Source: Oligoflexia bacterium (GTDB taxonomy: Bacteria > Bdellovibrionota > UBA1018 > CAIMNF01). Taken from it: a stretch of DNA of 64,000 nucleotides. Location: contig CAIKYX010000261.1 in NCBI GenBank assembly GCA_903831745.1, positions 4,685 to 68,684 on the forward strand, read 5' to 3'. Shown piece by piece: positions 24,313-39,010 of the stretch (its first letter is position 1; the number at the start of each line of letters is the position of its first letter). Both the position numbers and the translations under genes were made by a program. The notes beneath the pieces were generated by a model. The model worked only from the letters and a program-made list of their open reading frames with translations, was not told the DNA's origin and searched no databases.

Positions 24313-24325
24313 AATCTTCCTATCA

Positions 24326-24637
24326 TCAATCTCTTAGCATTTGTATTTGATCAGAATCGACCGTTCGAAGCGTACGAAACAGCGCGATTACCAAGCCCAA
24401 GCCTACCGCAGATTCGGCGGCGGCAACCGTCATCACGAACAACGCGGTCAGATCGCCCTCTACCAAATGATGAATTCTCGAGAACGCCACAAAACACAAA
24501 TTCACCGAATTCAGCATCAGCTCGATGCTCATCAACATGATGAGCAGGTTCTTTCGGACAATTACGCCCAGAAGCCCGATGGTAAAAACAATCATCGCCA
24601 CAATCAAAAGCATCCAAGGCTGAAGTTCTGGAATCAT
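24326..24637 (-). CDS. nuoK: NADH-quinone oxidoreductase subunit K
   Basis: MSIELMLN and VAAAESAVGL (both conserved Glu). Confidence 0.96.
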   Translation of the reverse strand: MIPELQPWMLLIVAMIVFTIGLLGVIVRKNLLIMLMSIELMLNSVNLCFVAFSRIHHLVEGDLTALFVMTVAAAESAVGLGLVIALFRTLRTVDSDQIQMLRD

Positions 24638-25173
24638 GACTCGCCCCCTAAAGCTGTTTTTCTTTTGGCCAAGGCAACCGTAGATACGATCGCTCCCAGT
24701 AACAAAAACGAGGTCAGTTCGAAATGAAACACGTGATCTGAAAAAAGAGCCTCTGAAACTACCCTGAGATTTCCACCCTGGGCCGTGATCTTTTCTTCGG
24801 TAAGTTGCCCGACCGCCACAATATCCTGAGCGCGTAATACCGTATGAATCAGAATCATCGCAAGACCTGCAAGAGCAAGCGCCGCAACGCCCTTGAACAA
24901 TCCCGAACTTTCTTTAAGGTCATTGACCGGCGTATCCTGATTCAAAAGCATGATGACGAACACAAATAGAACCATGATGGCTCCGGTGTACACCAGAATC
25001 TGAAGTGCAGCGATCAAGTGGGCGCCAATCAACGCGTACAAACCGGCAAACGCAAAGAATACCATGACCAACGCAAACGCAGATGAAACCGGATTCTTTT
25101 TTAAGACCACCGAAAGCGCCCCGAAGATCGCGATCGTCGAGAATACACAAAACGCAAAAAACCCCAGATTCAT
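24634..25173 (-). CDS. nuoJ: NADH-quinone oxidoreductase subunit J
   Basis: NPVSSA, QILVYTGAIMVLFVFVIML, FELTSFLL. Confidence 0.95.
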   Translation of the reverse strand: MNLGFFAFCVFSTIAIFGALSVVLKKNPVSSAFALVMVFFAFAGLYALIGAHLIAALQILVYTGAIMVLFVFVIMLLNQDTPVNDLKESSGLFKGVAALALAGLAMILIHTVLRAQDIVAVGQLTEEKITAQGGNLRVVSEALFSDHVFHFELTSFLLLGAIVSTVALAKRKTALGGES

Positions 25174-25616
25174 GATTTGTTTCCCCGCTGCTCCATCAAG
25201 AAGTCCTTTGAGTACACCGAGCGGTGCTCCTGACTCATTTCATAGATATTACTGAGCTTGATCGCATCCTTCGGACATGCCTCTTCGCACATGCCGCAAA
25301 AACAACAACGAAGCACATCAATCTCGAATTTTACTGGGTACTTTTCCTTGTCTTCGCGCTCGCCCGCCTCGATGTGAATACACTCGGCAGGGCAGACAGT
25401 CGGGCAAAGCATGCAGGCCGTACAGTTTTCAATTTCGTTTACGGCCTTGATATAATGTTGCCCGCGAAAACGAGACGAATATTCGCGACGCTCTTCCGGA
25501 AACTTAAGGGTCACCTTTTTATGAAAAAAGAAGTTTCGAATCGTAATCAATAGTCCCTGAATGATTTCGATCAAATAGAGGCGGTTCAAAAAGCCAGTTT
25601 TTCTTTGCGCCAGCAT
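25170..25616 (-). CDS. nuoI: NADH-quinone oxidoreductase subunit I
   Basis: FPEE, RFRG, CTACMLCPTVCP, CCFCGMCEEACP. Confidence 0.96.
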   Translation of the reverse strand: MLAQRKTGFLNRLYLIEIIQGLLITIRNFFFHKKVTLKFPEERREYSSRFRGQHYIKAVNEIENCTACMLCPTVCPAECIHIEAGEREDKEKYPVKFEIDVLRCCFCGMCEEACPKDAIKLSNIYEMSQEHRSVYSKDFLMEQRGNKS

Positions 25617-26696
25617 TTAGAGCACTCCTTTATAAATCAACAAGCCCGTAACAAATACATTGATCAGGGCGATGGGAAACAACACTTTCCAACCTAGTTT
25701 CATCAATTGGTCGAAACGAAAGCGCGGCAAGGTCCAGCGAACCCAGACAAAGAACCACATCCAAAATGCGACCTTGATGACAAACGAAACACCCTGAAAG
25801 AAAACCAGAATCAATTGAGCATGCTCGGTTCCTGCGAATTGGCCTGCAAGCCAGCCAAACCCCGGAAGGAGCTGCCAGCCGCCGAAAAAGAGTGAAGTAA
25901 TCAGGCCTGACGCCACAGCCATATTGATGAATTCGGCCATCATGAAAAGCGCGAACCTCATCGATCCGTACTCGAGATGGTAACCGGCAATCAACTCGGA
26001 CTCACCCTCTGGCAAATCGAATGGCAGACGGTTCGTCTCGGCAAAAACCGAAATGAGAAAAATAATGAACCCGACCGGCTGGATGAAAATTCCCCACTTT
26101 GGAATATCGAGTCCTGCAATCGAAACCAGGGTTTCACCCTGAGCTGCAGTGATGTCACCGAGCTTCACACTTTGAAACACCATGATGATACCGACAATCG
26201 ACAATCCCAGAGTCAATTCATAGCTGATCATCTGAGCAGAAGACCGAAGGCTTCCCAAAAGTGAATATTTATTATTCGACGCCCAACCCGCCATGATGAT
26301 TCCGTAAACGCCGAGTGAAGCGACTGAAAAACAATACAAGATACCCACATCGAGATTGGCAACCTGAAAGATCGCCTCAGAGCCATTCCATGACATTGAA
26401 CCCGCGAATGGAATGACTGCAAAAGTCATGAAGGCGGGGATAACCGCGAGCCAAGGAGCAAGCGAGTAATAGAATTTGTTGACGTGGCCAGGAGGGCTGT
26501 CTTCTTTGAAAATAAACTTAAGCACATCGCATGCGGCCTGAAACATCCCGAACGGCCCCATGCGGTTTGGTCCGAGACGATTCTGTAAAAGCGCTGATCC
26601 CCTGCGTTCTACAAACAACATGATCGGAACCACGGCAAGGAGTCCCGCCAGCACTACTGCGATCTTAATCATCATGAACGACATTTCGAAACTCAT
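25617..26696 (-). CDS. nuoH: NADH-quinone oxidoreductase subunit H
   Basis: ERR..Q.R.GPNR.GP, RSSAQMISYE, ETNRLPFDLPEGESEL, PRFRFDQLM. Confidence 0.97.
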   Translation of the reverse strand: MSFEMSFMMIKIAVVLAGLLAVVPIMLFVERRGSALLQNRLGPNRMGPFGMFQAACDVLKFIFKEDSPPGHVNKFYYSLAPWLAVIPAFMTFAVIPFAGSMSWNGSEAIFQVANLDVGILYCFSVASLGVYGIIMAGWASNNKYSLLGSLRSSAQMISYELTLGLSIVGIIMVFQSVKLGDITAAQGETLVSIAGLDIPKWGIFIQPVGFIIFLISVFAETNRLPFDLPEGESELIAGYHLEYGSMRFALFMMAEFINMAVASGLITSLFFGGWQLLPGFGWLAGQFAGTEHAQLILVFFQGVSFVIKVAFWMWFFVWVRWTLPRFRFDQLMKLGWKVLFPIALINVFVTGLLIYKGVL

Positions 26697-28108
26697 GATA
26701 CGGCTCCCGCCAGTGCTTTTTTATTCATCGCAAGCATCAGTACCTCAGAAAAAGCCTTGCACCGACCTCCTGGCAACACAGCTCGTCTCAGTTTTTGTTC
26801 GATTCCCATGTGATTGATGACAGTTCCGTCTTTTTCGGTAAACGAAAAACCCGGTAGCACCAGACTCAGGCCCGCAGTATCGGCCGCGAGAAACACACCC
26901 ACTCCAATGACTTTCTTAGCCTTGATGGCTGGAAGCACCGCACGTCCACCCCGAAAAACAATGACCGTGTCTGTCGATGATTTTCCGGAATAGGCGGGGA
27001 TGCCCAACTTTTCAGCACCATTCAAGTTCGAGGTCTTGCTCTTCATCTTCAGGATGGTGTCTTGCGGTCCATCCTGCGCGGTCGACTCAACTCCCTGAGT
27101 TCCAAAATGTTCTACTGTGATTTTTGAAAGGCCTGCGAACTCTTTGATCGTCGCCATTTCTTCAAGCGTCAGATCCGTACCCACCAGAAACGAAACTTTC
27201 GAAGCCGAAATTTCAGCCCGGAAGCTTTCCATGGCAGAATCCCACGAGGCCTTGATCAATTCTCCGGCGTCTCGTTTCATCGGCTCGAGAACGCGGGTAG
27301 GGTCCTGGGTATAGCGATAATTGAATCGACCTTCATCACACATCCAGAATTTATTGATTTGTTGGTTTTCGATAGGAACACAGCGGTAGACCACGTTGCC
27401 TTCGTGTTGAACTTCGATATTACAACCTTTCGAACACCCTTCACAAACAGACGCGGTTTTCTTCAGCATCCATGCGCGTTTACGAAAGCGAAAATCCTTA
27501 AGCGTCAAAGACCCGGTCGGGCAAATATCGGAATAATTTCCGGCATACTCGGTTTGAAGTTGTTTGCCGTCGATAGTGGTGATGTCGATATTATTTCCGC
27601 GTTGAACCGCCACCATTTCATGAATGCCTGCAATCTCATCGCCAAAGCGGATACAGCGAGTGCAATGAATACAGCGATTCATGTTCTTTTCGATGACCGG
27701 CCCCATGTCGACATCGACAAACGTTCTTCGCTCTTCTGAATGGCGCATGGTCGCATTGCCGTAACCGAAGGAATTATTCTGAAGATCGCATTCTCCCGAC
27801 TTATCACAGATCGGACAATCGAGCGGGTGATTGAGGAGCAAAAACTCCATCGTGCCTGCTCGCCCTTTGATTACATTTTCTGAATTGGTCTTTACCACCA
27901 TGCCTTCGCCGGCCATGGTCGAGCACGCCGTCTGAAGTTTTGGCATCTTCTCGACTTCGACATAACACATGCGACATTGGGCAACGACACTGAGGCCCGG
28001 GTGATAACAAAATACCGGAATCTCGACTCCCGCGCGCGCAGCGACTTTGATCAGATTTTCTCCGGCCGTAAATTCGACTTCCTTACCGTCGATCGTGCAT
28101 TTAGGCAT
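26693..28108 (-). CDS. nuoG: NADH-quinone oxidoreductase subunit G (short, about 471 aa)
   Basis: FCYH...CRMC, HPLDCPICDKSGEC, RCIHCTRC, CPTGSL, CEGCSKGC...C. Start taken at MPKC. Confidence 0.95.
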   Translation of the reverse strand: MPKCTIDGKEVEFTAGENLIKVAARAGVEIPVFCYHPGLSVVAQCRMCYVEVEKMPKLQTACSTMAGEGMVVKTNSENVIKGRAGTMEFLLLNHPLDCPICDKSGECDLQNNSFGYGNATMRHSEERRTFVDVDMGPVIEKNMNRCIHCTRCIRFGDEIAGIHEMVAVQRGNNIDITTIDGKQLQTEYAGNYSDICPTGSLTLKDFRFRKRAWMLKKTASVCEGCSKGCNIEVQHEGNVVYRCVPIENQQINKFWMCDEGRFNYRYTQDPTRVLEPMKRDAGELIKASWDSAMESFRAEISASKVSFLVGTDLTLEEMATIKEFAGLSKITVEHFGTQGVESTAQDGPQDTILKMKSKTSNLNGAEKLGIPAYSGKSSTDTVIVFRGGRAVLPAIKAKKVIGVGVFLAADTAGLSLVLPGFSFTEKDGTVINHMGIEQKLRRAVLPGGRCKAFSEVLMLAMNKKALAGAVS

Positions 28109-29390
28109 ATTTCTTCTGTCCTTTGATATACGCTTCAAATTCTGGTCTGAATTTTTTTACAAAACTGATGACCGGGCCGGCAGCAGCGTCACCCAGTGCA
28201 CAAAGTGTTTTACCACCAATGTTCTGAGCCACTTCGACCAACAAATCTAGATCCTGCATTTTTGCTTCGCCCTTGATCATCTTATGAAGCAGGGATTCCA
28301 TCCAATGGCAGCCTTCACGACAAGGCGTGCACTGACCACAGGATTCATGGGCATAAAACTTGGTGATTCTGAGAAGAAGCTTAACCAGATCGGTATCTTC
28401 GTGAATAACCATGATCGCCGCAGACCCCATCATCGTGCCGATTTTTTGAAGCGGCTCTACATCGTAAATGACATCAATCTCGTCCGCAGTCAGAATCGGC
28501 GCCGATGAACCTCCTGGAATGACCGCCTTCAGGCGTTTATCACCCAGCATTCCGCCGCCCAGATCTTGAATGATCTGACGAAGGGTCATGCCACCCGCCA
28601 TCACCTCATATACTCCCGGTTTTTTTACGTGTCCCGAAAGCGAAATCAGGCGAGTTCCGCCCGACTTGTCGATCTTACCCATTTTTGCAAAACTTTCGCC
28701 GCTCATTCGCATGATAAATGGAATGTTCGCAAGCGACTCGACATTGTTAACCGCAGTTGGGCACGAAAATGCTCCTGAAGTTGCAGGAAATGGTGGTTTT
28801 ACCCGCGGTTCGCCGCGCTTACCCTCAAGAGAGTTCAAAAGCCCGGTTTCTTCACCACAGATATAGGCGCCCGCTCCGCGATGAACGGTAATATCGAGAT
28901 CAAACTTAGAACCCATGATGCCTTGGCCCAGATAACCCTTGGCATAAGCTTCTTGAATGGCTTCGTCGAGAAGCTTTGCTTCACGAACATATTCACCCCG
29001 AATATAGATATAGGCGTGCTTGCACCCAATCGCATAAGAACCAATCACGAGGCCTTCGATCAAAAGATGCGGAGTATAGCGCATGATCTGGCGATCCTTG
29101 CACGTTCCTGGTTCTGACTCATCGGCGTTGCAAACCAGATATTTTGGCTTTTCGCTTTGTTTGGGGATAAAGCTCCACTTCATACCGGTTGGAAAACCGG
29201 CGCCGCCTCGGCCTCGTAAATTTGCTTTCTTTACTTCATCAATGACCTGATCCGGTGTGAGCTCGGTAAGCACACGCTTCGCGGCCTGATACCCGTTCAT
29301 TTTTTCGAGATAATAAGAGAGTGCGCGATTTGAATCCTTAAAGAAATGCTGGATAAAAAGAGAGCCTTCGCTCGCTTTAACTTCACTCAT
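28101..29390 (-). CDS. nuoF: NADH-quinone oxidoreductase subunit F
   Basis: RGRGGAGFPTG, NADESEPG, GAGAYICGEET, ESCGQCTPCREG. Confidence 0.98.
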   Translation of the reverse strand: MSEVKASEGSLFIQHFFKDSNRALSYYLEKMNGYQAAKRVLTELTPDQVIDEVKKANLRGRGGAGFPTGMKWSFIPKQSEKPKYLVCNADESEPGTCKDRQIMRYTPHLLIEGLVIGSYAIGCKHAYIYIRGEYVREAKLLDEAIQEAYAKGYLGQGIMGSKFDLDITVHRGAGAYICGEETGLLNSLEGKRGEPRVKPPFPATSGAFSCPTAVNNVESLANIPFIMRMSGESFAKMGKIDKSGGTRLISLSGHVKKPGVYEVMAGGMTLRQIIQDLGGGMLGDKRLKAVIPGGSSAPILTADEIDVIYDVEPLQKIGTMMGSAAIMVIHEDTDLVKLLLRITKFYAHESCGQCTPCREGCHWMESLLHKMIKGEAKMQDLDLLVEVAQNIGGKTLCALGDAAAGPVISFVKKFRPEFEAYIKGQKKYA

Positions 29391-29878
29391 GAGCGCACCC
29401 CGCCTTCCTTGATTTTTTCGATATAGGCATTGAGCTTGTGAATATCCAATTCTTCGACGTAATCATCGTTCGCCATCATCGCGGGCGCAGCGGTACACGC
29501 ACCAAGGCACTCTTCTTCCGAAAGCGTAAAGAGACCGTCTTTGGTGGTTTCGCCACATTCGATTTCGAGTTTCTTTTCGGCAAATCCCATGAGCTCATCA
29601 GCACCGCGCAGGCAACAAGCCACATTGGTGCAGATCTTCAGATGCATTTTTCCGACGGGCTTAAGATTATACATCGTGTAGAAACTGGCGACCTCACGAA
29701 TTTGCGCCTCGTGCACACCGATGTACTCAGCAACCGCGGCCAGGCTTTCTTTTGGAAGCCAGCCATATTCCTTTTGTGCTTGATGAAGGGCCGGCAGAAT
29801 GAGTGCTTTCTTATTGGGATAGCGACTCTCGAGCTTCTTCATTTCTTCGTAAAACTTGTTTGATAATGGTGTACTCAT
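29387..29878 (-). CDS. nuoE: NADH-quinone oxidoreductase subunit E
   Basis: FYTMY, CTNVAC, ECLGAC. Confidence 0.96.
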   Translation of the reverse strand: MSTPLSNKFYEEMKKLESRYPNKKALILPALHQAQKEYGWLPKESLAAVAEYIGVHEAQIREVASFYTMYNLKPVGKMHLKICTNVACCLRGADELMGFAEKKLEIECGETTKDGLFTLSEEECLGACTAAPAMMANDDYVEELDIHKLNAYIEKIKEGGVRS

Positions 29879-29880
29879 GA

Positions 29881-31161
29881 TTATCGATCGAGCTCCCCGG
29901 CAATGACGTTGATACTTCCCAGTGCTGCCACCAAGTCAGCAATATACCCACCCTGAATCATCGGCGATAGGCCTTGATAATGCCAAAATGAGGGACTTCT
30001 AATCCGCATGCGATGAGCATTCACATCGCCTTTGCTGACGATATAAAAACCCAGTTCACCGTTTGCCGCTTCAAAAGCTGTGTAAGCCTCGCCCGGCGGA
30101 ACGTTGAAACCTGTCATGAAAAATTTAAAATGGTGAATCAAACCTTCCATTGTGTTGTACACGGCTGCTTTTTCTGGAATCCTGACTCGCTTGTCTTCGG
30201 ACCAAATCGGGCCACTTCGAATTTTGTCGCAACATTGTGAAATGATGTTCAGTGACTGCTTCATTTCTTCCATTCGCACGTAGTAGCGATCAAAAACATC
30301 TCCAACTCGCGCAATCGGCACATCGAAATCCATCTTGTCATAGAACATACAAGGTTGATCACGACGAAGATCGATATCGACTCCGGCTGCGCGCGCGTTC
30401 GGACCGGTAAAACTATAGTTCAAACACTGCTCTTTATTAAAGACTGCTACGTTCTTTGTGCGATTCAACCAGATGCGGTTGTCGGTGAGCAATCGATCCA
30501 TTTCATCGATGACGTCTCGGGTTTCCTTCACCCAGGCTTTTACGTCTTTTTCCCAACCTTCGGGCGCATCATACATCAGGCCGCCGATGCGGGTATAAGA
30601 CGTGGTCAGTCGAGCTCCACAGAGTTGTTCAATCAGCGTGTACGCTTTTTCGCGTTGATGATAGCCGTACAAGAAGTAAGAGAATGCCCCCAGGTCGACG
30701 GCGTTGATGCCGACGCAAATCAAATGATCAATGACACGCGCGAGTTCGGCGCAAATCATGCGAATCCAAGTGGCGCGCTCGGGAACCTCAACCCCCATCA
30801 ACCGCTCGACCGAAAGGGCGTAGGTAACGTTGTTGATCAATGACGAACAATAATTCAGACGATCGGTATAAACGATGAATTGATGATACGTGCGATTTTC
30901 GCCCAGCTTCTCTTTTGCCCGGTGGGTATAGCCGAATTCGCAGTACGATTTTTCGATGATCTCGCCATTCAACTTGGCCATACATCGAAACGCGCCATGC
31001 ATCGCAGGATGGGTCGGACCAATATTAACGATGACCCGTGAGTCTTCGAAAATATCGTCCGAGTCTTTTTTCAGAGAAACGTCGTAGTGCGAAGGAAAAC
31101 CCCAGCGGGCAATATCCAAAGGCACGTCCGGCTGAAGTGCGTTTTCTTTTTCATTTTTCAT
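29881..31161 (-). CDS. nuoD: NADH-quinone oxidoreductase subunit D
   Basis: GPTHPAMHG, DRLNY, GELGFY, C-terminal GELDR. Confidence 0.97.
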   Translation of the reverse strand: MKNEKENALQPDVPLDIARWGFPSHYDVSLKKDSDDIFEDSRVIVNIGPTHPAMHGAFRCMAKLNGEIIEKSYCEFGYTHRAKEKLGENRTYHQFIVYTDRLNYCSSLINNVTYALSVERLMGVEVPERATWIRMICAELARVIDHLICVGINAVDLGAFSYFLYGYHQREKAYTLIEQLCGARLTTSYTRIGGLMYDAPEGWEKDVKAWVKETRDVIDEMDRLLTDNRIWLNRTKNVAVFNKEQCLNYSFTGPNARAAGVDIDLRRDQPCMFYDKMDFDVPIARVGDVFDRYYVRMEEMKQSLNIISQCCDKIRSGPIWSEDKRVRIPEKAAVYNTMEGLIHHFKFFMTGFNVPPGEAYTAFEAANGELGFYIVSKGDVNAHRMRIRSPSFWHYQGLSPMIQGGYIADLVAALGSINVIAGELDR

Positions 31162-31718
31162 TTCAAGAGCTCCGGATCAATCGGTTCTGGATTCAAAAAC
31201 ACCTGGTACCCTCGAAGCGGGTAATCTTTTCTAAGCGGGTGACCTTCCCAGCGAACATCCATGAGAATTCGTCTCAGGTCGGGGTGTCCCTCGAAGCTGA
31301 TACCAAACATATCGTAAATTTCGCGCTCGGCCCAATTTGCGCCCGCCCAAAGCGGAATGAACGTGCCTATCTTTTCATTTTCCGACAAACGAACCTTGAT
31401 GCGAATGCGCGCTTTCGTTTCTGGATTCATCAGGTGAAACACAAGCTCAAAGCGGGGATCATTCTGCTCATCGACTGCCGTCATGTCGGTCAGAAAACTA
31501 TAATTGTATTTTTCCTTGAGGGTTTGCAGAAACGAATGGGCAATCGCTTTCTTTACGTAAAGAATCGGAAGATCGGTTGCATCTTGCCCAGGCTTCAGAA
31601 CTTTTTCGACTCCTGACGAGAACTCAGCCAGGATGGATTCAATCTGTTGATTCCAGATCTCACCGAATTTTTCAGGAAAATATCCGTAATTGCCGGGAAT
31701 CAGTGTTTTAACGTTCAT
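31158..31718 (-). CDS. nuoC: NADH-quinone oxidoreductase subunit C
   Basis: [32 protein letters not shown] 31718 has a GAGG SD and overlaps the nuoB end. Confidence 0.95.
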
Positions 31719-32250
31719 GACCCACCTCAAGTCCGAGACTTGCCGGACGTTTGCTGTCATTTCGAAGATTTTTCTCACGGTTTTGAGAATGGGTTTCGCC
31801 TCTTGCAATCATTTCTTGAAGGCGAAACAACGCATTCAAAAGTCCTTCAGGCGAAGGCGGACAACCCGGAACATAAACATCAACAGGCAAAACGGTGTCG
31901 ATTCCTTGGGTGACGCTATAGACATTGAAAATTCCACCGGACGAAGCGCACGCACCCATCGAAATGACCCATTTTGGATCGGCCATCTGATCGTAAATAT
32001 TTCTGAGGATGGGCGCCATTTTGAGATTAACGATACCGGCGCAAATCAAAAGATCGCTTTGGCGCGGAGAGAACCGCACCACTTCAGCTCCGAATCGGGC
32101 CATATCGTAGCCCGACGCCAAGGTAGACATCAGCTCAATGCCGCAGCAACTGGTTCCGAAGGGGAGTGGAAACAATGAGTTTTTCCGTGCCCAGCTGACG
32201 ACATGGTCTAATTTGGTGGTAAAAAAATCTGATGCTCCGTCTTTAGACAT
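31708..32250 (-). CDS. nuoB: NADH-quinone oxidoreductase subunit B
   Basis: [25 protein letters not shown]. Confidence 0.97.
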
Positions 32251-32263
32251 ATGTATTTCCTAC

Positions 32264-32626
32264 TTATTCCCAATTTAAAGCGCCTTTTCTGACGATATAG
32301 ACATAGCCCACAATCAGAACCGCTACGAAAGACAACATTTCAAGTAATACGAAATTTCCGGTCGACATGAATTTCTTAAAAACAACCGCCCAGGGATAAA
32401 AGAACACCGTCTCTACGTCGAACAACAAAAATAAAATGGCGACGAGGTAGAACTGAACCGATACGCGCTTGTGTTTTCCGGAGTCGACAGGCGGCACGCC
32501 ACATTCGACAGGAGAGTTTTTCATTCGATTGGGTAACTTGGGTCCGAGCAGTGATGTAATGACCAACACTGCTCCACCTACAGCGATCCCCGCTGACATC
32601 ATGACCAGCACAGGAAGGTAGTCCAT
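32264..32626 (-). CDS. nuoA: NADH-quinone oxidoreductase subunit A
   Basis: ECG loop, FLLFDVETVFFYPW, GALNWE. Confidence 0.96.
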   Translation of the reverse strand: MDYLPVLVMMSAGIAVGGAVLVITSLLGPKLPNRMKNSPVECGVPPVDSGKHKRVSVQFYLVAILFLLFDVETVFFYPWAVVFKKFMSTGNFVLLEMLSFVAVLIVGYVYIVRKGALNWE

Positions 32627-32673: not shown

Positions 32674-34038
32674 TTACCATAAATTAATAGCAGGGTGTTC
32701 ATTTAATAATGTGACCAGGGGCGCTCTCGACGCGGTTAAAAAGACGATGATGAACAAATAAAGCACAAAAAACAAGACTTCACCGGAAATCAGCTTCCGG
32801 TTCAAACCTGACTCACATTTGAATAATGCGATTTTTCCAACTTTTTGAATTGAAGAAGCGGTGGCACCGAACCAAGTAAGGGCAATCACAACGGCCAGGG
32901 GCAGAAGGTCAGCTGAAATCATTTCATGCATCAATCGAAAAAATTGATGTCCCATTTCAAGGGGCGGTGCACCGACCAAAGCGAAGATGGTGGCGACCAT
33001 CAGAAACTTGTTCTGATACTTCTCTTCTTGAAAAGAATAGCCCGCCAGCAGGAACGTGATCAAAAACGCCAGTGAAAGAATATAGAACGCCGGAAGCGAA
33101 TGGTCTCCTCCGAGTACCAACGAAAACCAGCCGATCCCACAGAGGCTTGGCAGAATCGCCGACAACCAATCCGCATGTCCAGTCGTGCGAATCGCGAGCA
33201 CCACGTAACGGATGGTGAAGCCAGAGAACAGCAGGCCTAGAAAAAGCTGAGCTGCGTTTTTTGACAAGAATTCGGAAGCGTTTAAGAAAGGAATACCAAT
33301 CCTCAGCCAAAACACCGATACCATGACAAAGGAAACCAGATTCATACAAGCCAAGGCAAACGGGCTTTTTCCTCTAAAGACATTACCATGGGTCATGACG
33401 GATCCCAGGGCGAACAAGATCACGCCCATTCCCAATAAGGAAAAGGACTTTTCATGATGAAGCTTGACCCATTCGATGTATTCCGAAAAATAAATCGACC
33501 CCGAGGACAAACTCGAAATCGTAAAGAACGCGAAAAACAGACCGAGTAAAAGTGAAAAACCAAACGCCTGTTGCCGAATGGTCTTAATCCAACCTTCGTG
33601 GAGCTTGCTCTCGACCAGAATCAAATTTCGTGCAGAAATAGCGGACCCAAGCCACGCAAGCGCGTAGAGCAAAATGCTGTTACTCATGAAGCCGAGGTCG
33701 AGAAACAAGCAAAGAAACAAAACAAATAGAAGCGCTCTTTGCTTTTCGAGGTAAACCATTCCTCTGTGCAAATGAATACTCAAAGAGCCCAAAATCAAAA
33801 GTAGGAGTGAAAAAATTCTGCCAAAATAGGTGACGGAATCAGAGACCAGGATTTTCTCAGGCGGTGAAAAATAGGCGAGATCGGTCCGCATCAGAAAAAA
33901 CGAAGCTCCGGCAAGTGTGAAGAGTGAAAACACGAGAGGCAACGAGCGATAAGTGACTGGCTTGAAATTCAAGGAAAGCATCGCCACAAAGAACTGCACT
34001 AAAATTAATAATTCCGGAATCCAGTCGAGAAGAATCAC
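32674..34038 (-). CDS. highly divergent NuoN-like membrane protein
   Basis: Last gene of the second cluster; multi-TM. SNSILLYALAWL ~ AKDLVVMFIALE, LVGAPPL ~ MAGMPL. GTG start overlaps the upstream stop (GTGA). Confidence 0.7.
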   Translation of the reverse strand: MILLDWIPELLILVQFFVAMLSLNFKPVTYRSLPLVFSLFTLAGASFFLMRTDLAYFSPPEKILVSDSVTYFGRIFSLLLLILGSLSIHLHRGMVYLEKQRALLFVLFLCLFLDLGFMSNSILLYALAWLGSAISARNLILVESKLHEGWIKTIRQQAFGFSLLLGLFFAFFTISSLSSGSIYFSEYIEWVKLHHEKSFSLLGMGVILFALGSVMTHGNVFRGKSPFALACMNLVSFVMVSVFWLRIGIPFLNASEFLSKNAAQLFLGLLFSGFTIRYVVLAIRTTGHADWLSAILPSLCGIGWFSLVLGGDHSLPAFYILSLAFLITFLLAGYSFQEEKYQNKFLMVATIFALVGAPPLEMGHQFFRLMHEMISADLLPLAVVIALTWFGATASSIQKVGKIALFKCESGLNRKLISGEVLFFVLYLFIIVFLTASRAPLVTLLNEHPAINLW

Positions 34039-35027
34039 AGATGGCCCACCCTTTCCAACCAGAAAAATGCCACTGCACAAAACAGCTGGGTCGCCACCAC
34101 GATATAGTAGCGAAATCGCACTGACGAGTTTGGCTCTCTCTCGCGGAACTCATGACCCACATTCAGGGCGAATGCCTGAAGCGTGAAGGCCACGATTAGA
34201 ACCCAGATCCAATTCACATTCAGAGCCACAATGCTTTTTAGTGAATAGAAGAGTCCCGAGCAAACCAGAAATCCAGGCATACCGGCCAAAAACACTCTCG
34301 AGAAAACCTCGGTCTTACGTCCTAATTGTTGCCCAAGCGAAATCAGAATGGGCGAAGTCATCATCACTACCGAAAGCGAAGCAATCGCCAAGCGAACCAA
34401 GGATTCTGAATCCACCATCAGGACAAACATGCTCAATCCCAACCAAGCTTGAGTCAGGTGAATCCACTTTGAACGCGACTTGCGCTTCATCAGGGATAAC
34501 CAGGAGCCTGCGAGGAAAGTGGATAACCCAAGAATGGTCAGAACCAGATCCCAAGTCTGGGTCCACTCGACTCTCATCTCGGGCTTGATTCTCATCAACA
34601 CATTCAGCGTCGCTAGCGCTGGCAAGAGGCTCGAGTACAAATAAGTGCGCTGGGTGACTCCATGTTCTTGCCTTTCAAAAATCAAAGACCAAAGAACCGT
34701 AGGCAAAGACAAGACTAACCCGATGAAAATCAGTAAGGAAGAGAGCGGACTTCCCTGAAGCGCAACGCCGAACAAGCTCACAAAAAGAAAGAAGCACCGA
34801 AGTGAAAAGTTCATTTGTGACAGGACCGCGTTCGAGCGCTTTCCTTGGCGGCTAGAAATCAAATACGAAGCCATGGTCAGCAGAATCAATAGAAGAATAC
34901 TGACTTCCATCGAACCCGAAAAAACCGCTCCTGCTGCAAGCGCGATCGGACCAAGCCCCACTGGGGTTGACGTCACCAACCACGCAATGACCATCACTGC
35001 ACTGAGAAAGCTCCAATCAAAATTCAA
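34035..35027 (-). CDS. highly divergent, shortened NuoM-like membrane protein (330 aa)
   Basis: GGAGG SD. HLTQAWLG ~ YSSISHLG, LAGMPGFLVCSGL ~ VALPGTMNFVGE. Position between L-like and N-like. Confidence 0.65.
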   Translation of the reverse strand: MNFDWSFLSAVMVIAWLVTSTPVGLGPIALAAGAVFSGSMEVSILLLILLTMASYLISSRQGKRSNAVLSQMNFSLRCFFLFVSLFGVALQGSPLSSLLIFIGLVLSLPTVLWSLIFERQEHGVTQRTYLYSSLLPALATLNVLMRIKPEMRVEWTQTWDLVLTILGLSTFLAGSWLSLMKRKSRSKWIHLTQAWLGLSMFVLMVDSESLVRLAIASLSVVMMTSPILISLGQQLGRKTEVFSRVFLAGMPGFLVCSGLFYSLKSIVALNVNWIWVLIVAFTLQAFALNVGHEFREREPNSSVRFRYYIVVATQLFCAVAFFWLERVGHL

Positions 35028-35868
35028 AGGAACCTCCTTTTTCGATCAGAACCACACCCACCCATAACACCACCATGATCAAGGTCCACCAAAAAATAGA
35101 TTGATAGGCCGGGGCAATCTCACCTGAATGTTCACGCTCGGCTTTTTCGAGCCAAAAGCGGCCAAATGTAGCTCGGTCACCGATCGCGCGGAAGGCGCGC
35201 TCACTTGAAGCCTGGATTCGATTCAACCATCCTTCAAAATCAGGGGTTTTAAAGTGGTTCCAAATGAAGATTCCAAGAAGCACGGTGAGAATCGCGCCTC
35301 CTGCAATGACCAATGGCTCACTCTCTGCGATCGTCATGACTGCCGGTCGAAAAGAAAGCAGCACGCCCACCAACAAGAAGGGCTCTAGCCATTTTTGAAT
35401 CAATTCCTGTTTTTTAACCTTGAGTGCCTTCAGTGATTCTTTGATCACCACCGACCCGACAGCGGTTCCTAAAACCACTTCCATGAACTCGGGTTGCGCA
35501 AAATAGCTTCGAGAAAGAATCAAAGCGACGACCACTCCCAAACGATCGAGTCCTCCAGAATAAGAGACCCCCAAGACCCCGAAGATCGTAAAAAACTCTC
35601 GGAAGGGTGCCGGTGCTGCCATGCCGATCAATAACAGTAAAATGGATACAGAATCTTTTACTCTGAAGGGGGTCGGAAGATTTTCGCGGGCTCTCGACCA
35701 GACCACGAGTGTCGCGGTCAGAATCGCAAAGACGTCGCCCTTTAAAAACGCACCGATGGCGATTGCAATAAACGGCAAAACAGTGCGCTCACGCACCAAG
35801 CCTAGAAGTGCGGCGAGAAAGAAATAGAGTGAAATCTGATTCAGCTGTAACCAATCATTCAGATTCAT
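35017..35868 (-). CDS. highly divergent, shortened NuoL-like membrane protein (283 aa)
   Basis: LQLNQISLYF ~ LRLDSLSAVF, FRVKD ~ NRIGD, C-terminal amphipathic stretch followed by HSG...Y and a final TM. Confidence 0.6.
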   Translation of the reverse strand: MNLNDWLQLNQISLYFFLAALLGLVRERTVLPFIAIAIGAFLKGDVFAILTATLVVWSRARENLPTPFRVKDSVSILLLLIGMAAPAPFREFFTIFGVLGVSYSGGLDRLGVVVALILSRSYFAQPEFMEVVLGTAVGSVVIKESLKALKVKKQELIQKWLEPFLLVGVLLSFRPAVMTIAESEPLVIAGGAILTVLLGIFIWNHFKTPDFEGWLNRIQASSERAFRAIGDRATFGRFWLEKAEREHSGEIAPAYQSIFWWTLIMVVLWVGVVLIEKGGSFEF

Positions 35869-36094
35869 GGTCGAGTTGAACTTCCTTTCTCAATACCATC
35901 ATGGCGCCAACCAGAATGATGGCGGTCAAAAAAACGGCTCCACCCAAAATCAAAGTGTCGTGACTTCTGAGCGCCAGAAGAGCATCTAAAACCAAGGCCA
36001 AACGCGCAACCCCAATAGAAACTCGGGGACCATCTTCAGCCATGAGAAGCTCAAACAAAGCATAAGCTAATAATAGAATCACAAACCAAATCAT
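35855..36094 (-). CDS. NuoK-like 3-TM protein lacking both conserved Glu
   Basis: 79 aa, three hydrophobic segments, ATGA overlap with J-like. Assignment mainly by position and size. Confidence 0.55.
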   Translation of the reverse strand: MIWFVILLLAYALFELLMAEDGPRVSIGVARLALVLDALLALRSHDTLILGGAVFLTAIILVGAMMVLRKEVQLDHESE

Positions 36095-36459
36095 CGTTTT
36101 CTTCTCTCCGTGATCAGGGCAATCAACGCTAGCGCCACTACCAAGGCCATTCCCAGATAAACAGGAAGCAACGGGCCATTCCAAAGATCTTCAGGCGACA
36201 GATCGACCTTCTTCTCGGGCTCTGGTCCGATCAGAGAAAGACCCACACTTACCGAAAGAATGAGCGCCAGAAATGCGGATTGCACCATTTTCAAGCGAGA
36301 CGCTCCCCGCGGACGGGTCCCTAAAAGCAAGAGAGTCTTCCAAAATTGGGCACCATAAAAGAGTCCGAGCAAAACAAGGAAGACTCCGAATGCAGGAACC
36401 TTCATGCCGAGGACGGCGGCGGTCGCAATCAACAGTGCCAGATCAAAAAAAACAATCAC
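36091..36459 (-). CDS. NuoJ-like membrane protein (122 aa)
   Basis: Hydrophobic, FYGA motif, LW...LLP before the last TM. GTGA overlap with I-like. Confidence 0.55.
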   Translation of the reverse strand: MIVFFDLALLIATAAVLGMKVPAFGVFLVLLGLFYGAQFWKTLLLLGTRPRGASRLKMVQSAFLALILSVSVGLSLIGPEPEKKVDLSPEDLWNGPLLPVYLGMALVVALALIALITERRKR

Positions 36460-36848
36460 CGTCGCCCCCTTCCAAAGCTCATCTTCAAATCATTCGGACT
36501 GAGTACGGCAGGCTGAATCTCTTTGGTCTGAACCAGAGCGTTTGGATCGCAAACATCGACACAGAACCCGCAAAAAATGCATTGTGAAAAATCGATATCG
36601 AATTTCGACACCCAAGGACGATGGCTTTTTTCGCTCTCCTGATATTCAAGTTCGATGCATTGCGTGGGACAAACTTTCACGCACTCTTCGCAAGCCGTGC
36701 ATTTTTCGATCGAATTAAAAATCAATCCTCGGGCCCGAGCCGGAAAATCGTCTTTTCCGCGCGATGAAACTGGGTCCGGATAAAACTCCGTATCAATTTT
36801 TCGGATTTCGCCTTCATTCAAAAGATGCTTCATTACCCGCTTAAGCAT
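36456..36848 (-). CDS. NuoI-like 2x[4Fe-4S] ferredoxin subunit
   Basis: YPD, RARG, CTACEECVKVCP, FDIDFSQCIFCGFCVDVC. ATG 36848 overlaps the H-like stop. Confidence 0.88.
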   Translation of the reverse strand: MLKRVMKHLLNEGEIRKIDTEFYPDPVSSRGKDDFPARARGLIFNSIEKCTACEECVKVCPTQCIELEYQESEKSHRPWVSKFDIDFSQCIFCGFCVDVCDPNALVQTKEIQPAVLSPNDLKMSFGRGRR

Positions 36849-37614
36849 GACTTCCCCCATAAGATACGAGGCCAAAAATGATCGCTGAAAACAACCAAAG
36901 CGCAATGGCCATCGGCAAGAGATAGACGAGGGATATCCTGAATAAGTCTTGCTTCGAATAAGCCGGAAAATACCGACCGAGCAGGCGGCACGCGACGAAG
37001 AGAACGGCGCTTTTCAGATGACCATCCAGAATAAAGAGATTGCCCTTCAAGAACAAATGAGTGGCAACCATGCACCAGCCATAAAACCTTGCCGACTGAA
37101 GCCAACTTTGTTCGCGCACGCCCGATTGAAACGGGTATTCGAGAAACAGAATCATTCCGGCAACCAAAAACAATGGCACAAACACCAAATGAAGAGGCGT
37201 CCATTCGTTTTGAATGAAAACACTCATGGCACTGAGGACGCCGAGCAGAGAACCAATCAGGAAAAATACCTGCGATCGATCCGCATTAATTCTGGCCTCG
37301 ACTTCATTGTTGAGCGGCGAAGCGGTCACCAACACCAGAGAATTGAGTGCCAGGTAGATTAAAAACACAGTCACAAAATTGTATTCGAGAAAAAACACCA
37401 GGCTGAGTTGAAGTACCAATACCGCCCAGGACTTCCACGCTCTCGAGGCGACCAGCTCTGACCATGAATCAACCCACAATTGATATAAAAACCCAGGAAA
37501 AGTAGCCCCTTTGCCCACGCGAGATTGATGGGTCACGTTCGTGCGCTCACTGATGCCGTAAACCAGGAAAGAAATCGGAAAAAAAATCAGAATCGAGATC
37601 AAAGTAGAAATCAT
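36841..37614 (-). CDS. divergent, shortened NuoH-like membrane protein (257 aa)
   Basis: ISERTNVTHQSRVG ~ VERRGSALLQNRLG, QLWVD ~ QAACD, EYPFQ ~ RLPFD. Confidence 0.7.
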   Translation of the reverse strand: MISTLISILIFFPISFLVYGISERTNVTHQSRVGKGATFPGFLYQLWVDSWSELVASRAWKSWAVLVLQLSLVFFLEYNFVTVFLIYLALNSLVLVTASPLNNEVEARINADRSQVFFLIGSLLGVLSAMSVFIQNEWTPLHLVFVPLFLVAGMILFLEYPFQSGVREQSWLQSARFYGWCMVATHLFLKGNLFILDGHLKSAVLFVACRLLGRYFPAYSKQDLFRISLVYLLPMAIALWLFSAIIFGLVSYGGSHA

Positions 37615-38636
37615 CGATCAATCTCCGTCACCAGGAAACCCAGGCTTTTTAAAATCAGAGGAGTGTCTTCAAAATATTCACTTTCGAGGGCAGGAATGAT
37701 GGCTCCCAAAATGGCGTCGGACGGAGTTCCGACCTTCATTGACTCGACTTTAAGATCTTCGCCGAGCTTCAACTCAAGCGCCCATTCACCTCGCCAGCAA
37801 ACCAAATCGCGAGTGCTCGCGGGCTTGATTCGTTTATTCCAACCTTCTACCAAAAATGCACCCTTATGGGGAGTTGCAACCAAAGCCATGATTTCGTCCG
37901 CACAACTGCGGGTGCAATTCAGCACAAACACCAAGCGCGACTCGACTTGACTGACCAGGCCTACATGAGTCGTCTGCACAGACGTTTCACTGACAAATCC
38001 GAACTTGCCTCCATCGACTACCGTGCCAATTGCTTGAAGGCGGTTTTGAAACGTATGTGACCAGAGAAACATCGACTGAATCCGGTCGAAATCTGCGAGG
38101 TAATTTTTAATCCAGATCTCTATCCGCTCGAGGAATCCTTCGGTAATATCGTATCGAACGCCGCCTGCGCGGACGAAACAATATCCATACCGTGAGCCCG
38201 TCAAAAGCTCGGTCAAATCGAGAAGCTCCTCACGGTGTTTGAGGAGAATATTCTTCAGGATCAATAGCCCCATCGCTTCAGCCATGACCGCCAGATACTT
38301 AAGCATCGAACTGAACTCACTCACCGTGGTCGATACTTCTCGAATCCAAACGGCACGGTCTTCGACACTCCATCCGAGACACTCTTCTACTGCTTCAGAA
38401 AAAATCCGATCGAGCAGGACTGCGCTTTCGGGCTCGATTCGAGAGAACCAATGGCGCGCTTGAACAAAAGAAGTTCCCAATATTTTTTTCTCTACATCTT
38501 TTTTCGCGTAGCCGAATTCATGAGCTCCGCTGACCATTTGATCTCCATGGAGATCAATCGAGAGCCGCATGGGGCCGGGCAACCAATGATGAATCGGACC
38601 TAAGTTCAGGCGAGACTGAATTTTGGGATCGTTCAT
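37611..38636 (-). CDS. NuoD-like protein without quinone-binding residues or NiFe ligands
   Basis: NLGPIH, EFGY, HREELLDL..LTGSR...GGV, RGE, TPS, terminal EIDR. No CxxC. ATGA overlap with B-like. Confidence 0.85.
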   Translation of the reverse strand: MNDPKIQSRLNLGPIHHWLPGPMRLSIDLHGDQMVSGAHEFGYAKKDVEKKILGTSFVQARHWFSRIEPESAVLLDRIFSEAVEECLGWSVEDRAVWIREVSTTVSEFSSMLKYLAVMAEAMGLLILKNILLKHREELLDLTELLTGSRYGYCFVRAGGVRYDITEGFLERIEIWIKNYLADFDRIQSMFLWSHTFQNRLQAIGTVVDGGKFGFVSETSVQTTHVGLVSQVESRLVFVLNCTRSCADEIMALVATPHKGAFLVEGWNKRIKPASTRDLVCWRGEWALELKLGEDLKVESMKVGTPSDAILGAIIPALESEYFEDTPLILKSLGFLVTEIDR

Positions 38637-39010
38637 TTTTGTCCCTCCCGCAGCGCCAGCAATCCATTCATGATGGCTTCGGGTCGCGGAGGGCATCCGG
38701 TCACATAAACGTTCACGGGAACTGACTCGTCCCGCTTGAGTGGAAAGAGTCCTCCGCCACAGGCACAGGTGCCAATCGCCAGCACATATTTCGGTGATTT
38801 CATCGCCGCGTAGTAAGTTTCGACTTCTTTTTGAAGTTTTTCGTTCAGAGTTCCCTGAATGATCAACAAATTTGCTTCATCATGATGATCCGCAGGCCGG
38901 CACCCCAGGCGCTCAAGGTCATATCGACTGGATTCGGTCTGCATCCAGTCGTCTCCACAGCAGGAAATGCCTACTCTAAAGTATTTGAGTGTCGGTTTAG
39001 TGGTTTTCAT
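38633..39010 (-). CDS. minimal NuoB-like [4Fe-4S] subunit (125 aa)
   Basis: SCCG, YDLERLG, PKYVLAIGTCACGGG, VTGCPPRPEA. Confidence 0.88.
   Translation of the reverse strand: MKTTKPTLKYFRVGISCCGDDWMQTESSRYDLERLGCRPADHHDEANLLIIQGTLNEKLQKEVETYYAAMKSPKYVLAIGTCACGGGLFPLKRDESVPVNVYVTGCPPRPEAIMNGLLALREGQK

What the first reader, a model, noticed from the sequence alone, without database searches (positions are those of the whole stretch)
36456..39010. Fe-S wire kept but quinone site erased in the paralogous peripheral arm
Seen: B-like keeps the tandem CC and the other two N2 ligands (SCCG, GTCA, GCPP), has an extra Cys (CACGGG), and lacks the N-terminal helices. I-like keeps all 8 Cys. In D-like, GPTHPAMHG becomes GPIHHWLPG and DRLNY becomes SRIEP compared with the canonical copy in this window. 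It is about 85 aa shorter yet retains the terminal EIDR. Established: the second His and that Tyr ligate the quinone headgroup. Inference: three [4Fe-4S] clusters are still under selection, but the terminal acceptor is not quinone bound in the normal way.
Basis: partly seen in the sequence, partly recalled or inferred. Interest (0 to 1): 0.75.

Follow-up and report, generated by a model that had tools for sequence, protein, structure and literature searches.

The report
Second complex-I-like module without quinone site
In front of an ordinary complex I operon lies a tightly packed, well-conserved nine-gene copy of the complex I core that keeps its iron-sulfur wire but lacks the residues that hold quinone, so it resembles the poorly understood "hydrogenase-related" complexes whose substrate is unknown.

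Summary
B' (38633-39010), D' (37611-38636), H' (36841-37614) and I' (36456-36848) are there. All 12 Fe-S cysteines are kept. In D', Thermus His38, Tyr87 and Asp139 correspond to Pro, Pro and Gly.

These features hold in relatives. D' shows them in 43 proteins. B' keeps its cysteines in 76-78 of 78 clusters. I' keeps all 8 Cys in 12 of 12 loci. dN/dS is 0.01-0.06.

The feature is larger than reported. It is nine translationally coupled genes running to 32674:
- H' has the ND1/NuoH fold.
- The last gene has the NuoN fold.
- The 330-aa gene is weakly antiporter-like.
- Three genes have no detectable family.
- There is no NuoA, C, E, F or G copy.

In 9 of 9 Bdellovibrionales loci with enough flank, the module sits between mfd and nuoA-N.

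D' is not a recent copy of the resident NuoD. It falls in a broad third clade that lacks both the quinone and the NiFe ligands. "Erased" is therefore unproven; the residues may never have been present.

The closest known kind is the Ehr complexes, whose function is unknown. I rate this a new variant of a known kind, of moderate interest.

The parts
38633..39010 (-). B': NuoB-like subunit, 125 aa. It keeps the tandem CC plus two more Cys (an N2-type [4Fe-4S] site) and has an extra Cys in CACGGG. It lacks the N-terminal helix and the C-terminal tail.
   Evidence: Sequence. PF01058 at 2.9e-21. NF005012 NuoB at 116.5 bits against a cutoff of 116. Alignment. Counts over 78 clusters.
37611..38636 (-). 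D': NuoD / hydrogenase-large-subunit-like protein, 341 aa from M21 (the ORF runs up to 38696). Pro, Pro and Gly stand at Thermus His38, Tyr87 and Asp139. There are no NiFe cysteines. It ends in EIDR.
   Evidence: PF00346 matches residues 150-226 only. NuoD NCBIfam models score 117 bits against a cutoff of 360. Clade placement.
36841..37614 (-). H': short (257 aa) ND1/NuoH-fold membrane subunit.
   Evidence: No family by sequence. AlphaFold2 model with pLDDT 79.5 and pTM 0.82. The 50 Foldseek PDB hits listed are, by chain label, ND1/NuoH chains, with TM 0.67-0.75 and E from 8e-5. Motifs ER...R.G, E.PF and YFP...Q.DLL are conserved in 12 of 12 sequences.
36456..36848 (-). I': NuoI-like 2x[4Fe-4S] ferredoxin subunit. 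The start is probably at the Met of MLKRV (the ORF runs up to 36905).
   Evidence: Fer4 families. TIGR01971 NuoI at 73.7 bits against a cutoff of 113. 8 Cys invariant in 12 of 12 sequences.
36091..36459 (-). J'?: 122-aa membrane protein (3-4 predicted TM helices). It stands where nuoJ stands in nuo order. Its family is unknown.
   Evidence: ORF present in 9 of 9 long loci. No Pfam hit. dN/dS 0.05.
35855..36094 (-). K'?: roughly 79-aa membrane protein with 3 TM helices (the ORF runs up to 36184). It stands where nuoK stands. Its family is unknown.
   Evidence: dN/dS 0.04.
35017..35868 (-). 283-aa membrane protein with no detectable relatives outside this module.
   Evidence: No Pfam match in 10 of 10 members. 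No usable ESM Atlas hit. No hhalign match to NuoA, NuoC or the other module subunits. dN/dS 0.06.
34035..35027 (-). 330-aa truncated antiporter-like (NuoL/M/N, MrpD) subunit. The support is weak.
   Evidence: 3 of 10 orthologues hit PF00361 Proton_antipo_M, best E 1.8e-5. hhalign to the window's NuoL gives E 0.005. dN/dS 0.02.
32674..34080 (-). 468-aa NuoN/ND2-fold antiporter-like subunit. The true start is probably about 14 codons inside the ORF.
   Evidence: AlphaFold2 model with pLDDT 79.6 and pTM 0.83; residues 1-15 fall below 50. Foldseek top hits are NuoN, NdhB, ND2 and MrpD, with TM 0.70-0.81 and E from 4e-9. 21 of 30 ESM Atlas hits are Proton_antipo_M clusters. No Pfam hit in 0 of 9 members.
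19571..32626 (-). Context: the canonical nuoA-N operon, starting 47 nt downstream of the module.
   Evidence: Pfam and NCBIfam matches for nuoA-D. ORFs; nuoE-N are named by size, order and the tblastn synteny.

Best explanation
This is a nine-subunit, stand-alone member of the complex I / group 4 hydrogenase superfamily of the Ehr kind. It is specific to a clade of Bdellovibrionales and is encoded directly upstream of the ordinary nuoA-N operon.

Shown:
- B', D', H' and I' plus at least one NuoN-fold subunit are real genes under strong purifying selection.
- The ligands for three [4Fe-4S] clusters (two in I', one N2-type in B') are kept.
- D' lacks the quinone head-group triad and all NiFe cysteines.
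- D' belongs to a broad third clade of large subunits that lack both.

Inferred:
- The proteins assemble like the junction of complex I: I' on B'D', which sit on H' and the small membrane subunits.
- Electrons enter at I' from a soluble low-potential carrier (ferredoxin- or flavodoxin-like). This is how N-module-less relatives such as NDH-1 and Mbh work; it is recalled knowledge.
- The electrons run over the three clusters to the N2-type cluster.
- They leave to an acceptor that does not use the complex I quinone chamber. Every element that builds that chamber is changed or missing: the D' ligands, the B' N-terminal helix, the long H' loops, and any NuoA copy.
- The canonical Glu/Lys residues of the antiporter-like subunit could not be matched, so proton pumping is doubtful.

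The acceptor itself is unknown.
For: - Gene content and tight packing. In the window, four junctions (B'/D', D'/H', I'/J', J'/K') are 4-nt ATGA/GTGA overlaps by the ORF coordinates and the orthologue-supported starts; the same is likely at the 330-aa/468-aa junction with its probable start, and the other three overlap by 8-14 nt. The loci show the same 4-nt overlaps at B'/D' and D'/H'.
- Synteny: mfd-module-nuoA... in 9 of 9 loci with enough flank. The two short contigs hold mfd-B'D'H'I'.
- Fe-S ligands are conserved.
- Quinone triad replaced: (Thermus and Yarrowia offsets; at least 90% of 43 homologues).
- No CxxC pairs at the NiFe positions.
- H' has the ND1 fold. Its modelled TM1-TM2 loop has about 9 residues, and the protein is 257 aa against 359 for the resident NuoH.
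- The 468-aa protein has the NuoN fold.
- The 330-aa protein hits Proton_antipo_M in 3 of 10 orthologues.
- dN/dS is 0.01-0.06 for all nine genes in the closest pair, L010-L011, with dS 0.5-1.0.
- D' clade: the nearest non-family hits of the profile search (E 1e-63 to about 1e-31) mostly carry the same LPGP / DPE pattern, with canonical HG / DY types from about 1e-30 (3611 hits at E<=1e-3, best 150 examined). Trees.
Against: - No NuoC-like gene is in the module. As far as I recall, every solved relative (complex I, NDH-1, Mbh, MBS, FHL) has a NuoC-like domain, so a stand-alone assembly is not assured.
- Three of the nine proteins have no recognisable family, so the J'/K' labels rest on gene order only.
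- No donor or acceptor gene is linked. The neighbours are housekeeping genes: mfd, SurA-like, pdxA, TPR.
- The claim that the proton-channel residues are lost rests on one weak alignment (E 0.04).
- The tandem CC of B' is the Nuo/Fpo-type N2 signature (recalled), and B' just passes the NuoB subfamily cutoff. This fits a quinone-type enzyme better than a hydrogenase-type one.
- NuoD homologues without H38/Y87/D139 occur in otherwise complete Nuo clusters (passages of PMC4758237), so quinone use by another binding mode is not excluded.
- No named Ehr sequence could be placed in my trees.
Confidence: 0.5

Rival explanations
1. It is still a quinone reductase. The module would reduce a membrane quinone at a shallower or differently built site, as may be the case for Nuo-type complexes whose NuoD also lacks H38, Y87 and D139.
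For: - B' keeps the tandem-Cys N2 signature and reaches the NuoB subfamily cutoff.
- D' keeps the Arg before the lost Tyr and mostly keeps the first His of GPxH.
- H' keeps the ND1 fold and the motifs ER, E.PF and P...D.
- PMC4758237 (passages read) reports natural NuoD without these three residues in Sulfolobus, Nautiliales and Desulfurobacteriales.
Against: - All three head-group residues are replaced by Pro/Pro/Gly, which cannot hydrogen-bond through a side chain.
- H' loops are shortened.
- The B' N-terminus is missing.
- There is no NuoA copy.
- The function of those other natural variants is itself unknown.
Confidence: 0.22
2. It is an alternative core that borrows shared subunits. B'D'H'I' and the membrane genes would replace B, D, H-N in a second isoform of complex I that uses the single-copy NuoA, C, E, F and G of the adjacent operon. 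NADH electrons would then be diverted to a non-quinone end point.
For: - The module lacks exactly A, C, E, F and G and follows the order B-D-H-I-(J-K-L-M-N).
- It is always fused to the front of nuoA-N, with a spacer of only 35-50 nt, in 9 of 9 loci.
- No terminator-like site lies in the 47-nt spacer of the window (a crude scan).
Against: - D' is a deep relative of the resident NuoD, not a recent copy. Interfaces to NuoC and NuoG would have had to be kept over a long divergence (25% identity).
- Module genes evolve much faster than the nuo genes: 22-48% identity for D', H' and the membrane genes against 58-90% for nuoA-G between loci.
- Nothing was tested about binding.
Confidence: 0.12
3. It is a non-catalytic relic, kept as a scaffold, assembly helper or regulator of complex I, with Fe-S clusters retained only for folding or redox sensing.
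For: - The membrane subunits are so diverged that sequence profiles fail.
- Canonical channel residues could not be matched.
- No donor or acceptor genes are linked.
Against: - dN/dS of 0.01-0.06 in all nine genes.
- Near-perfect retention of 12 cluster ligands plus one extra Cys over 78 clusters. This argues for a demanding function of the whole wire.
Confidence: 0.1

Closest known systems
Ehr (energy-converting / Ech hydrogenase-related) complexes, e.g. Geobacter sulfurreducens GSU0739-45, and those of Nitrospira and Margulisbacteria
   Same: - Membrane complexes of the complex I / group 4 hydrogenase superfamily with small (NuoB-like) and large (NuoD-like) subunits, a NuoH-like subunit and NuoL-like antiporter subunits.
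- The large subunit lacks the NiFe cysteines.
- The function and substrate are unknown.

Sources (passages read): PMC6349859, PMC10284858, PMC12342949, PMC7894505, PMC4758237.
   Different: - Those papers place Ehr close to group 4f hydrogenases. D' falls in a clade apart from all sampled NiFe hydrogenases and from NuoD, though no named Ehr sequence was in my trees.
- B' has the Nuo-type tandem CC.
- The module has a NuoI-like subunit, follows nuo gene order and is fused to a canonical nuo operon.
- The founding paper (Marreiros 2013) is not held, so its definition could not be read.
Canonical respiratory complex I (NuoA-N), including the copy in this window
   Same: - NuoB-type N2 ligands and NuoI-type 8 Cys.
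- NuoD N-terminal half, with E 1e-21 to PDB 49-kDa subunits.
- ND1 fold and NuoN fold.
- Gene order.
   Different: - No His38/Tyr87/Asp139.
- No NuoA, C, E, F or G.
- D' is 85 aa shorter, H' about 100 aa shorter and B' about 55 aa shorter.
- The D' and I' NCBIfam scores are far below the cutoffs.
- The membrane subunits are not recognisable by sequence.
Nuo-type clusters whose NuoD lacks H38/Y87/D139 (Sulfolobus, Nautiliales, Desulfurobacteriales), and Mbx/MBS
   Same: Large subunits of the superfamily without the quinone ligands. These are taken to predate effective quinone reactivity or to lack it (passages of PMC4758237).
   Different: - Those are the organism's main 11-subunit-type clusters and include NuoA and NuoC.
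- Here the module is a second set beside a full 14-gene operon.
- MBS keeps part of the NiFe Cys set and reduces polysulfide (recalled, not checked here).
Other nuo clusters of Bdellovibrionota
   Same: PMC13147790 (passages read) reports several nuo clusters in this phylum, including a nuoAHJKLMN cluster shared by all members. The only named members of the wider LPGP/DPE clade of D' are from Bdellovibrio sp. and Bdellovibrionota (P0211 and P0224).
   Different: That paper does not describe this nine-gene module or the missing quinone ligands. The wider-clade proteins are 368-390 aa, not 337-342 aa. Their gene context could not be fetched.

Membership tests
Respiratory complex I (Nuo) Q-module | NuoB with four Cys for cluster N2, including the tandem CC | tested here: met
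   12 of 12; 76, 78 and 77 of 78 for the three motifs. NF005012 at 116.5 bits against a cutoff of 116.
Respiratory complex I (Nuo) Q-module | NuoD with the quinone head-group ligands His38 and Tyr87 (Thermus numbering) and the partner Asp139 | tested here: not met
   Pro, Pro and Gly stand at these columns, conserved in at least 90% of 43 homologues. NuoD equivalog models score 117 and 94 bits against cutoffs of 360 and 459.
Respiratory complex I (Nuo) Q-module | NuoI with two CxxCxxCxxxC(P) motifs | tested here: met
   8 Cys in 12 of 12 sequences. The second motif ends in C-D/E/G instead of C-P. TIGR01971 scores 73.7 bits against a cutoff of 113, so the curated cutoff is not reached.
Respiratory complex I (Nuo) Q-module | NuoC (30-kDa) subunit, and NuoA, present in the set | tested here: not met
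   The only NuoC or NuoA relatives are the canonical ones (tblastn). hhalign of the unassigned module proteins against NuoC and NuoA profiles gives E 0.02-0.8.
Respiratory complex I membrane arm | NuoH/ND1 subunit | tested here: met
   By fold only: TM 0.67-0.75 to ND1/NuoH chains. Sequence profiles find nothing.
Respiratory complex I membrane arm | Antiporter-like subunits with the conserved TM5 Glu and TM7/TM8/TM12 Lys | tested here: inconclusive
   The fold is met for the 468-aa protein. PF00361 is hit in 3 of 10 orthologues of the 330-aa protein. The charged residues are not matched in the only alignment available, which is weak (E 0.04).
Group 4 [NiFe] hydrogenase | Two CxxC pairs (L1 and L2 motifs) in the large subunit | tested here: not met
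   D' and all 7 family representatives have no Cys at these positions, whereas 19 sampled hydrogenases do.
Ehr complexes | Superfamily large subunit without NiFe ligands, in a membrane complex with NuoB-, NuoH- and NuoL-like subunits | tested here: met
   The definition is taken from passages of PMC6349859 and PMC7894505.
Ehr complexes | Phylogenetic affiliation with group 4 hydrogenases (reported close to group 4f) | tested here: inconclusive
   D' lies in a clade separate from the sampled NiFe rows. No sequence named Ehr was available to place, and the tree is unrooted.

The most novel reading that the evidence does not exclude
The module is an alternative redox and membrane core that docks the single-copy NuoA/C/E/F/G of the adjoining operon. 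On this reading these predatory-clade bacteria build two complex I isoforms from one transcript: the normal NADH:quinone pump, and a second one that takes NADH electrons down an intact Fe-S wire to a non-quinone end point, with the extra conserved Cys beside the N2-type cluster taking part in the chemistry.
Probability: 0.1. Interest if true: 0.85.

Novelty: new variant of a known kind. Interest (0 to 1): 0.52.

Why it matters
Complexes of this superfamily that have neither a NiFe site nor a quinone site (Ehr and relatives) are widespread, yet none has a known substrate. This module offers a compact example under very strong selection, with a full three-cluster wire, a Nuo-type N2 signature and an invariant extra cysteine. 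It sits in organisms whose relatives can be cultured, next to a normal complex I that serves as an internal control.

If its acceptor were found, that would help answer what the terminal cluster of these enzymes does when there is no quinone chamber. It would also show how the quinone site arose or was lost in complex I evolution. For genome annotation, the practical point is that these genes are currently named NuoB and NuoD although D' cannot bind quinone in the known way.

Tried and rejected
- **Recent duplication of the resident NuoD: rejected.**
  - D' and NuoD share 25% identity.
  - D' groups with 'neither'-type proteins.
  - Forcing D' together with NuoD costs 57.9 lnL, p-AU 0.032. The 44 rows and the tested group were chosen after seeing the first tree, so this is only moderate evidence.
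  - The same test on the 133-row set did not finish in three runs.
- **Decaying pseudogenes: rejected** by dN/dS.
- **Hydrogenase: rejected**, because there are no NiFe cysteines.
- **Sequence-profile identification of the membrane genes mostly failed.**
  - Pfam and NCBIfam found nothing.
  - hmmsearch of the H' profile against PDB sequences gave 0 hits.
  - hhalign against the window's NuoA/H/I/J/K/L/M/N gave a best E of 0.005.
  - hhalign among the three large membrane families gave E of 0.0095 or worse.
  - hhalign against NuoA and NuoC profiles found nothing.
- **The idea that the 283-aa protein supplies NuoA- or NuoC-like parts found no support**. ESM Atlas gave no usable hit for it.
- **The promoter/terminator scan was uninformative:** 9 promoter-like sites against 9.2 expected.
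- **Marreiros et al. 2013 is not held**.
- **Literature searches** for this module found Ehr and Bdellovibrionota nuo papers, but none that describes this nine-gene unit. Subscription journals and supplements were not searched.
- **Complex prediction was not used.** No binding claim here would have been settled by it.
- **Not available:** The gene context of the wider clade therefore stayed unchecked.


Full report
**What is at the coordinates**

The minus strand from 39010 down to 36456 holds four overlapping ORFs.
- B' (125 aa) matches PF01058 and the NuoB subfamily model NF005012, at 116.5 bits against a cutoff of 116.
- D' is a 361-aa ORF, or 341 aa from the start that its orthologues use. 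It matches PF00346 only over residues 150-226. It matches NuoD and FpoD models over its first ~227 residues at 117 bits or less, far below their cutoffs.
- The 257-aa H' has no Pfam or NCBIfam match.
- I' matches 4Fe-4S dicluster families and NuoI models, again below the curated cutoffs.

The canonical NuoB, C and D of the window (31708-32250, 31158-31808, 29881-31161) score normally against complex I families, with NuoD clearing its curated cutoffs.

**The quinone columns**

The pairwise alignment of D' with the resident NuoD puts GPIHHWLPG over GPTHPAMHG and SRIEP over DRLNY.

Independent HMMER matches to solved 49-kDa/Nqo4 chains give these ranges:
- D' 29-226 on Thermus Nqo4 27-224.
- D' 29-227 on Yarrowia NUCM 84-282.

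Pro40 and Pro89 of the 361-aa ORF therefore fall on Thermus His38 and Tyr87, and on Yarrowia His95 and Tyr144 (the Yarrowia numbers are recalled). In the printed alignments (to two fungal 49-kDa chains, 9iho_D and 7zm7_C), Gly143 falls on the Asp of the conserved AMDVGA stretch, which I take to be the Thermus Asp139 equivalent.

Passages of PMC4758237 state that quinone is hydrogen-bonded to H38 and Y87 in Thermus, and that H38 and D139 bond to each other. The first His of GPxH and the Arg before the lost Tyr are kept.

**Conservation**

- 43 homologues of D' were found, at 41-56% identity and 319-342 aa. Where named, they come from Bdellovibrionales.
- In their alignment the Pro, Pro and Gly are at least 90% conserved and the C-terminal E.DR is kept.
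- I' keeps all 8 Cys in 12 of 12 sequences.
- B' keeps CC, C, C and the extra Cys in 12 of 12 sequences.
- In a wider search, 78 short B'-type clusters were examined:

| Feature | Kept |
|---|---|
| Tandem CC | 76 of 78 (the two misses are 103-aa N-truncated gene calls) |
| Third ligand | 78 of 78 |
| Fourth ligand | 77 of 78 (P0364 has Phe) |
| Extra Cys | 77 of 78 (P0355 has Thr) |

- The 42 longer (canonical) NuoB hits in the same list carry CASSGG in 41 of 42.
- Nei-Gojobori dN/dS for the closest locus pair (L010-L011, dS 0.5-1.0) is 0.01-0.06 for all nine module genes, against 0.00-0.01 for nuoA and nuoD.

**The unit is larger than the finding**

Downstream of I' lie five more ORFs of 122, 109, 283, 330 and 468 aa. 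nuoA follows after 47 nt.

Eleven related loci were found, all Bdellovibrionales or Oligoflexia MAGs. In 9 of 9 with enough flank the order is mfd (divergent), B', D', H', I', two small genes, then the 283-, 330- and 468-aa homologues, then nuoA-B-C-D-E-F-G. The two short contigs hold mfd-B'D'H'I'.

Start and stop codons overlap by 4 nt at B'/D', D'/H', I'/J' and J'/K', and by 8-14 nt (or probably 4 nt, with the likely 468-aa start) at the other junctions.

Identity between loci:

| Gene(s) | Identity |
|---|---|
| B' | 64-74% |
| I' | 64-70% |
| D' | 44-48% |
| H' | 36-40% |
| Three large membrane genes | 22-36% |
| nuoA-G | 58-90% |

**Identity of the membrane genes**

- **H'.** An AlphaFold2 model built on 12 sequences (pLDDT 79.5, pTM 0.82) finds only ND1/NuoH chains among the 50 PDB hits listed, judging by chain labels, with TM 0.67-0.75. 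The alignment keeps NuoH-like motifs.
- **468-aa protein.** Its model (pLDDT 79.6, pTM 0.83) matches NuoN, NdhB, ND2 and MrpD with TM 0.70-0.81. ESM Atlas points the same way, with 21 of 30 hits in Proton_antipo_M clusters. Pfam finds nothing in 0 of 9 members.
- **330-aa protein.** It hits Proton_antipo_M in 3 of 10 orthologues.
- **283-aa protein and the two small ones.** No relatives could be detected. Calling the small ones J' and K' rests on position alone.
- **Channel residues.** The one collinear alignment of the 468-aa family with the resident NuoM (E 0.04) does not match the TM5 Glu or the TM7/TM8 Lys. This is weak evidence.
- **Missing subunits.** No NuoC, NuoA, NuoE, NuoF or NuoG relative other than the canonical ones is present.

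**Where D' belongs**

A profile of the 43 D' proteins was scored against 1.84 billion representatives. It gave 3611 hits at E<=1e-3 and 61 at E<=1e-30.

Among the best 150, the proteins just outside the D' family (E 1e-63 to about 1e-31) mostly carry GP.H..LPGP and R.DPE at the two sites and S.SE.DR at the end. Canonical HG / DRLDY types begin near 1e-30, and CxxC hydrogenases come later.

In a tree of the 133 rows of at least 300 aa (17 shorter rows dropped), the result was as follows (quick search, SH-aLRT only, unrooted):
- The D' family is 7 rows with 97% support.
- It lies inside an 11-row clade with 100% support.
- That clade lies inside a set of 50 rows, all lacking both ligand sets.
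- A branch with 98% support splits this set from the 83 rows that hold all 30 His/Tyr types and all 19 four-Cys types.

In a 44-row subset chosen afterwards, the three classes are each one side of a branch (100, 96 and 100%). Holding D' together with the His/Tyr types costs 57.9 lnL, p-AU 0.032.

A search with 36 members of the wider clade returned about 68 such proteins among the best 120 (368-390 aa). The only two that are named come from Bdellovibrio sp. and Bdellovibrionota.

The residues in D' are thus a clade property and not a recent erasure. Without a root I cannot say whether they were lost or were never there.

**Comparison with what is known**

- Ehr complexes are described as group-4-hydrogenase-like membrane complexes that lack the NiFe ligands and have unknown function (passages of PMC6349859, PMC10284858, PMC12342949, PMC7894505 and PMC4758237).
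- NuoD without H38/Y87/D139 is reported for Sulfolobus, Nautiliales and Desulfurobacteriales (PMC4758237).
- Several nuo clusters are reported in Bdellovibrionota (PMC13147790), but not this module.
- My searches found no description of it. The founding Ehr paper is not held, and supplements were not read.

The module meets the working definition of Ehr. It differs in five ways: a Nuo-type tandem-Cys B subunit, a NuoI-like subunit, nuo gene order, fixed fusion to a canonical nuo operon, and a large subunit that does not group with sampled hydrogenases.

**Mechanism**

Shown: the wire ligands are kept, the quinone and NiFe ligands are absent, ND1 and NuoN folds are present, and selection is strong.

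Inferred: the proteins assemble like the complex I junction. Electrons enter at I' from a soluble low-potential carrier and pass over three clusters. They leave to an acceptor that does not use the quinone chamber, because the D' ligands, the B' N-terminus, the long H' loops and NuoA are all changed or missing.

The absence of a NuoC-like gene and of any linked donor or acceptor gene leaves three other readings open: a hybrid with shared NuoA/C/E/F/G, non-canonical quinone use, and a non-catalytic role.

**Verdict**

This is a new variant of a known kind, of moderate interest.

Noticed in passing
window 62561-63937 (minus strand; the ORF runs off the window end at 64000): The 458-aa ORF directly upstream of dnaN-recF-gyrB, where dnaA usually lies, has no DnaA or any other Pfam domain, even at E up to 10. 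The only hit is DUF3892 at 0.015.
   Followed up: partly
window 38633-39010 and 78 related clusters: An extra Cys two residues after the third N2 ligand (C-A/S-C-G-G-G) is kept in 77 of 78 B'-type proteins. It is absent from 41 of 42 canonical NuoB hits, which have CASSGG. One B' cluster (P0364) has Phe in place of the fourth ligand.
   Followed up: partly
window 35017-35868: The 283-aa membrane protein of the module is under strong purifying selection (dN/dS 0.06) yet has no detectable relative by Pfam, hhalign or ESM Atlas. It is an orphan subunit.
   Followed up: yes
window 26693-28138: The ORF in the nuoG position of the canonical operon is only 481 aa. That is much shorter than the NuoG proteins I recall (700-900 aa). 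It was not scanned for domains.
   Followed up: no
window 7689-8774: A 361-aa protein with a cytochrome P460 domain (E 3e-23) lies next to fumarase and queF.
   Followed up: no
window 31158-31808: The canonical NuoC has an N-terminal extension of about 80 residues before the 30-kDa domain (Pfam match 84-202 of 216 aa). tblastn to the other loci aligns only from residue 22-31 onward.
   Followed up: no
protein P0413: A 146-aa B'-like protein (55% identity, also with CACSGG) is listed with the same longest-contig length (457,844 bp) as a canonical NuoB (P0407). This hints at a more distant lineage that also carries both types.
   Followed up: no
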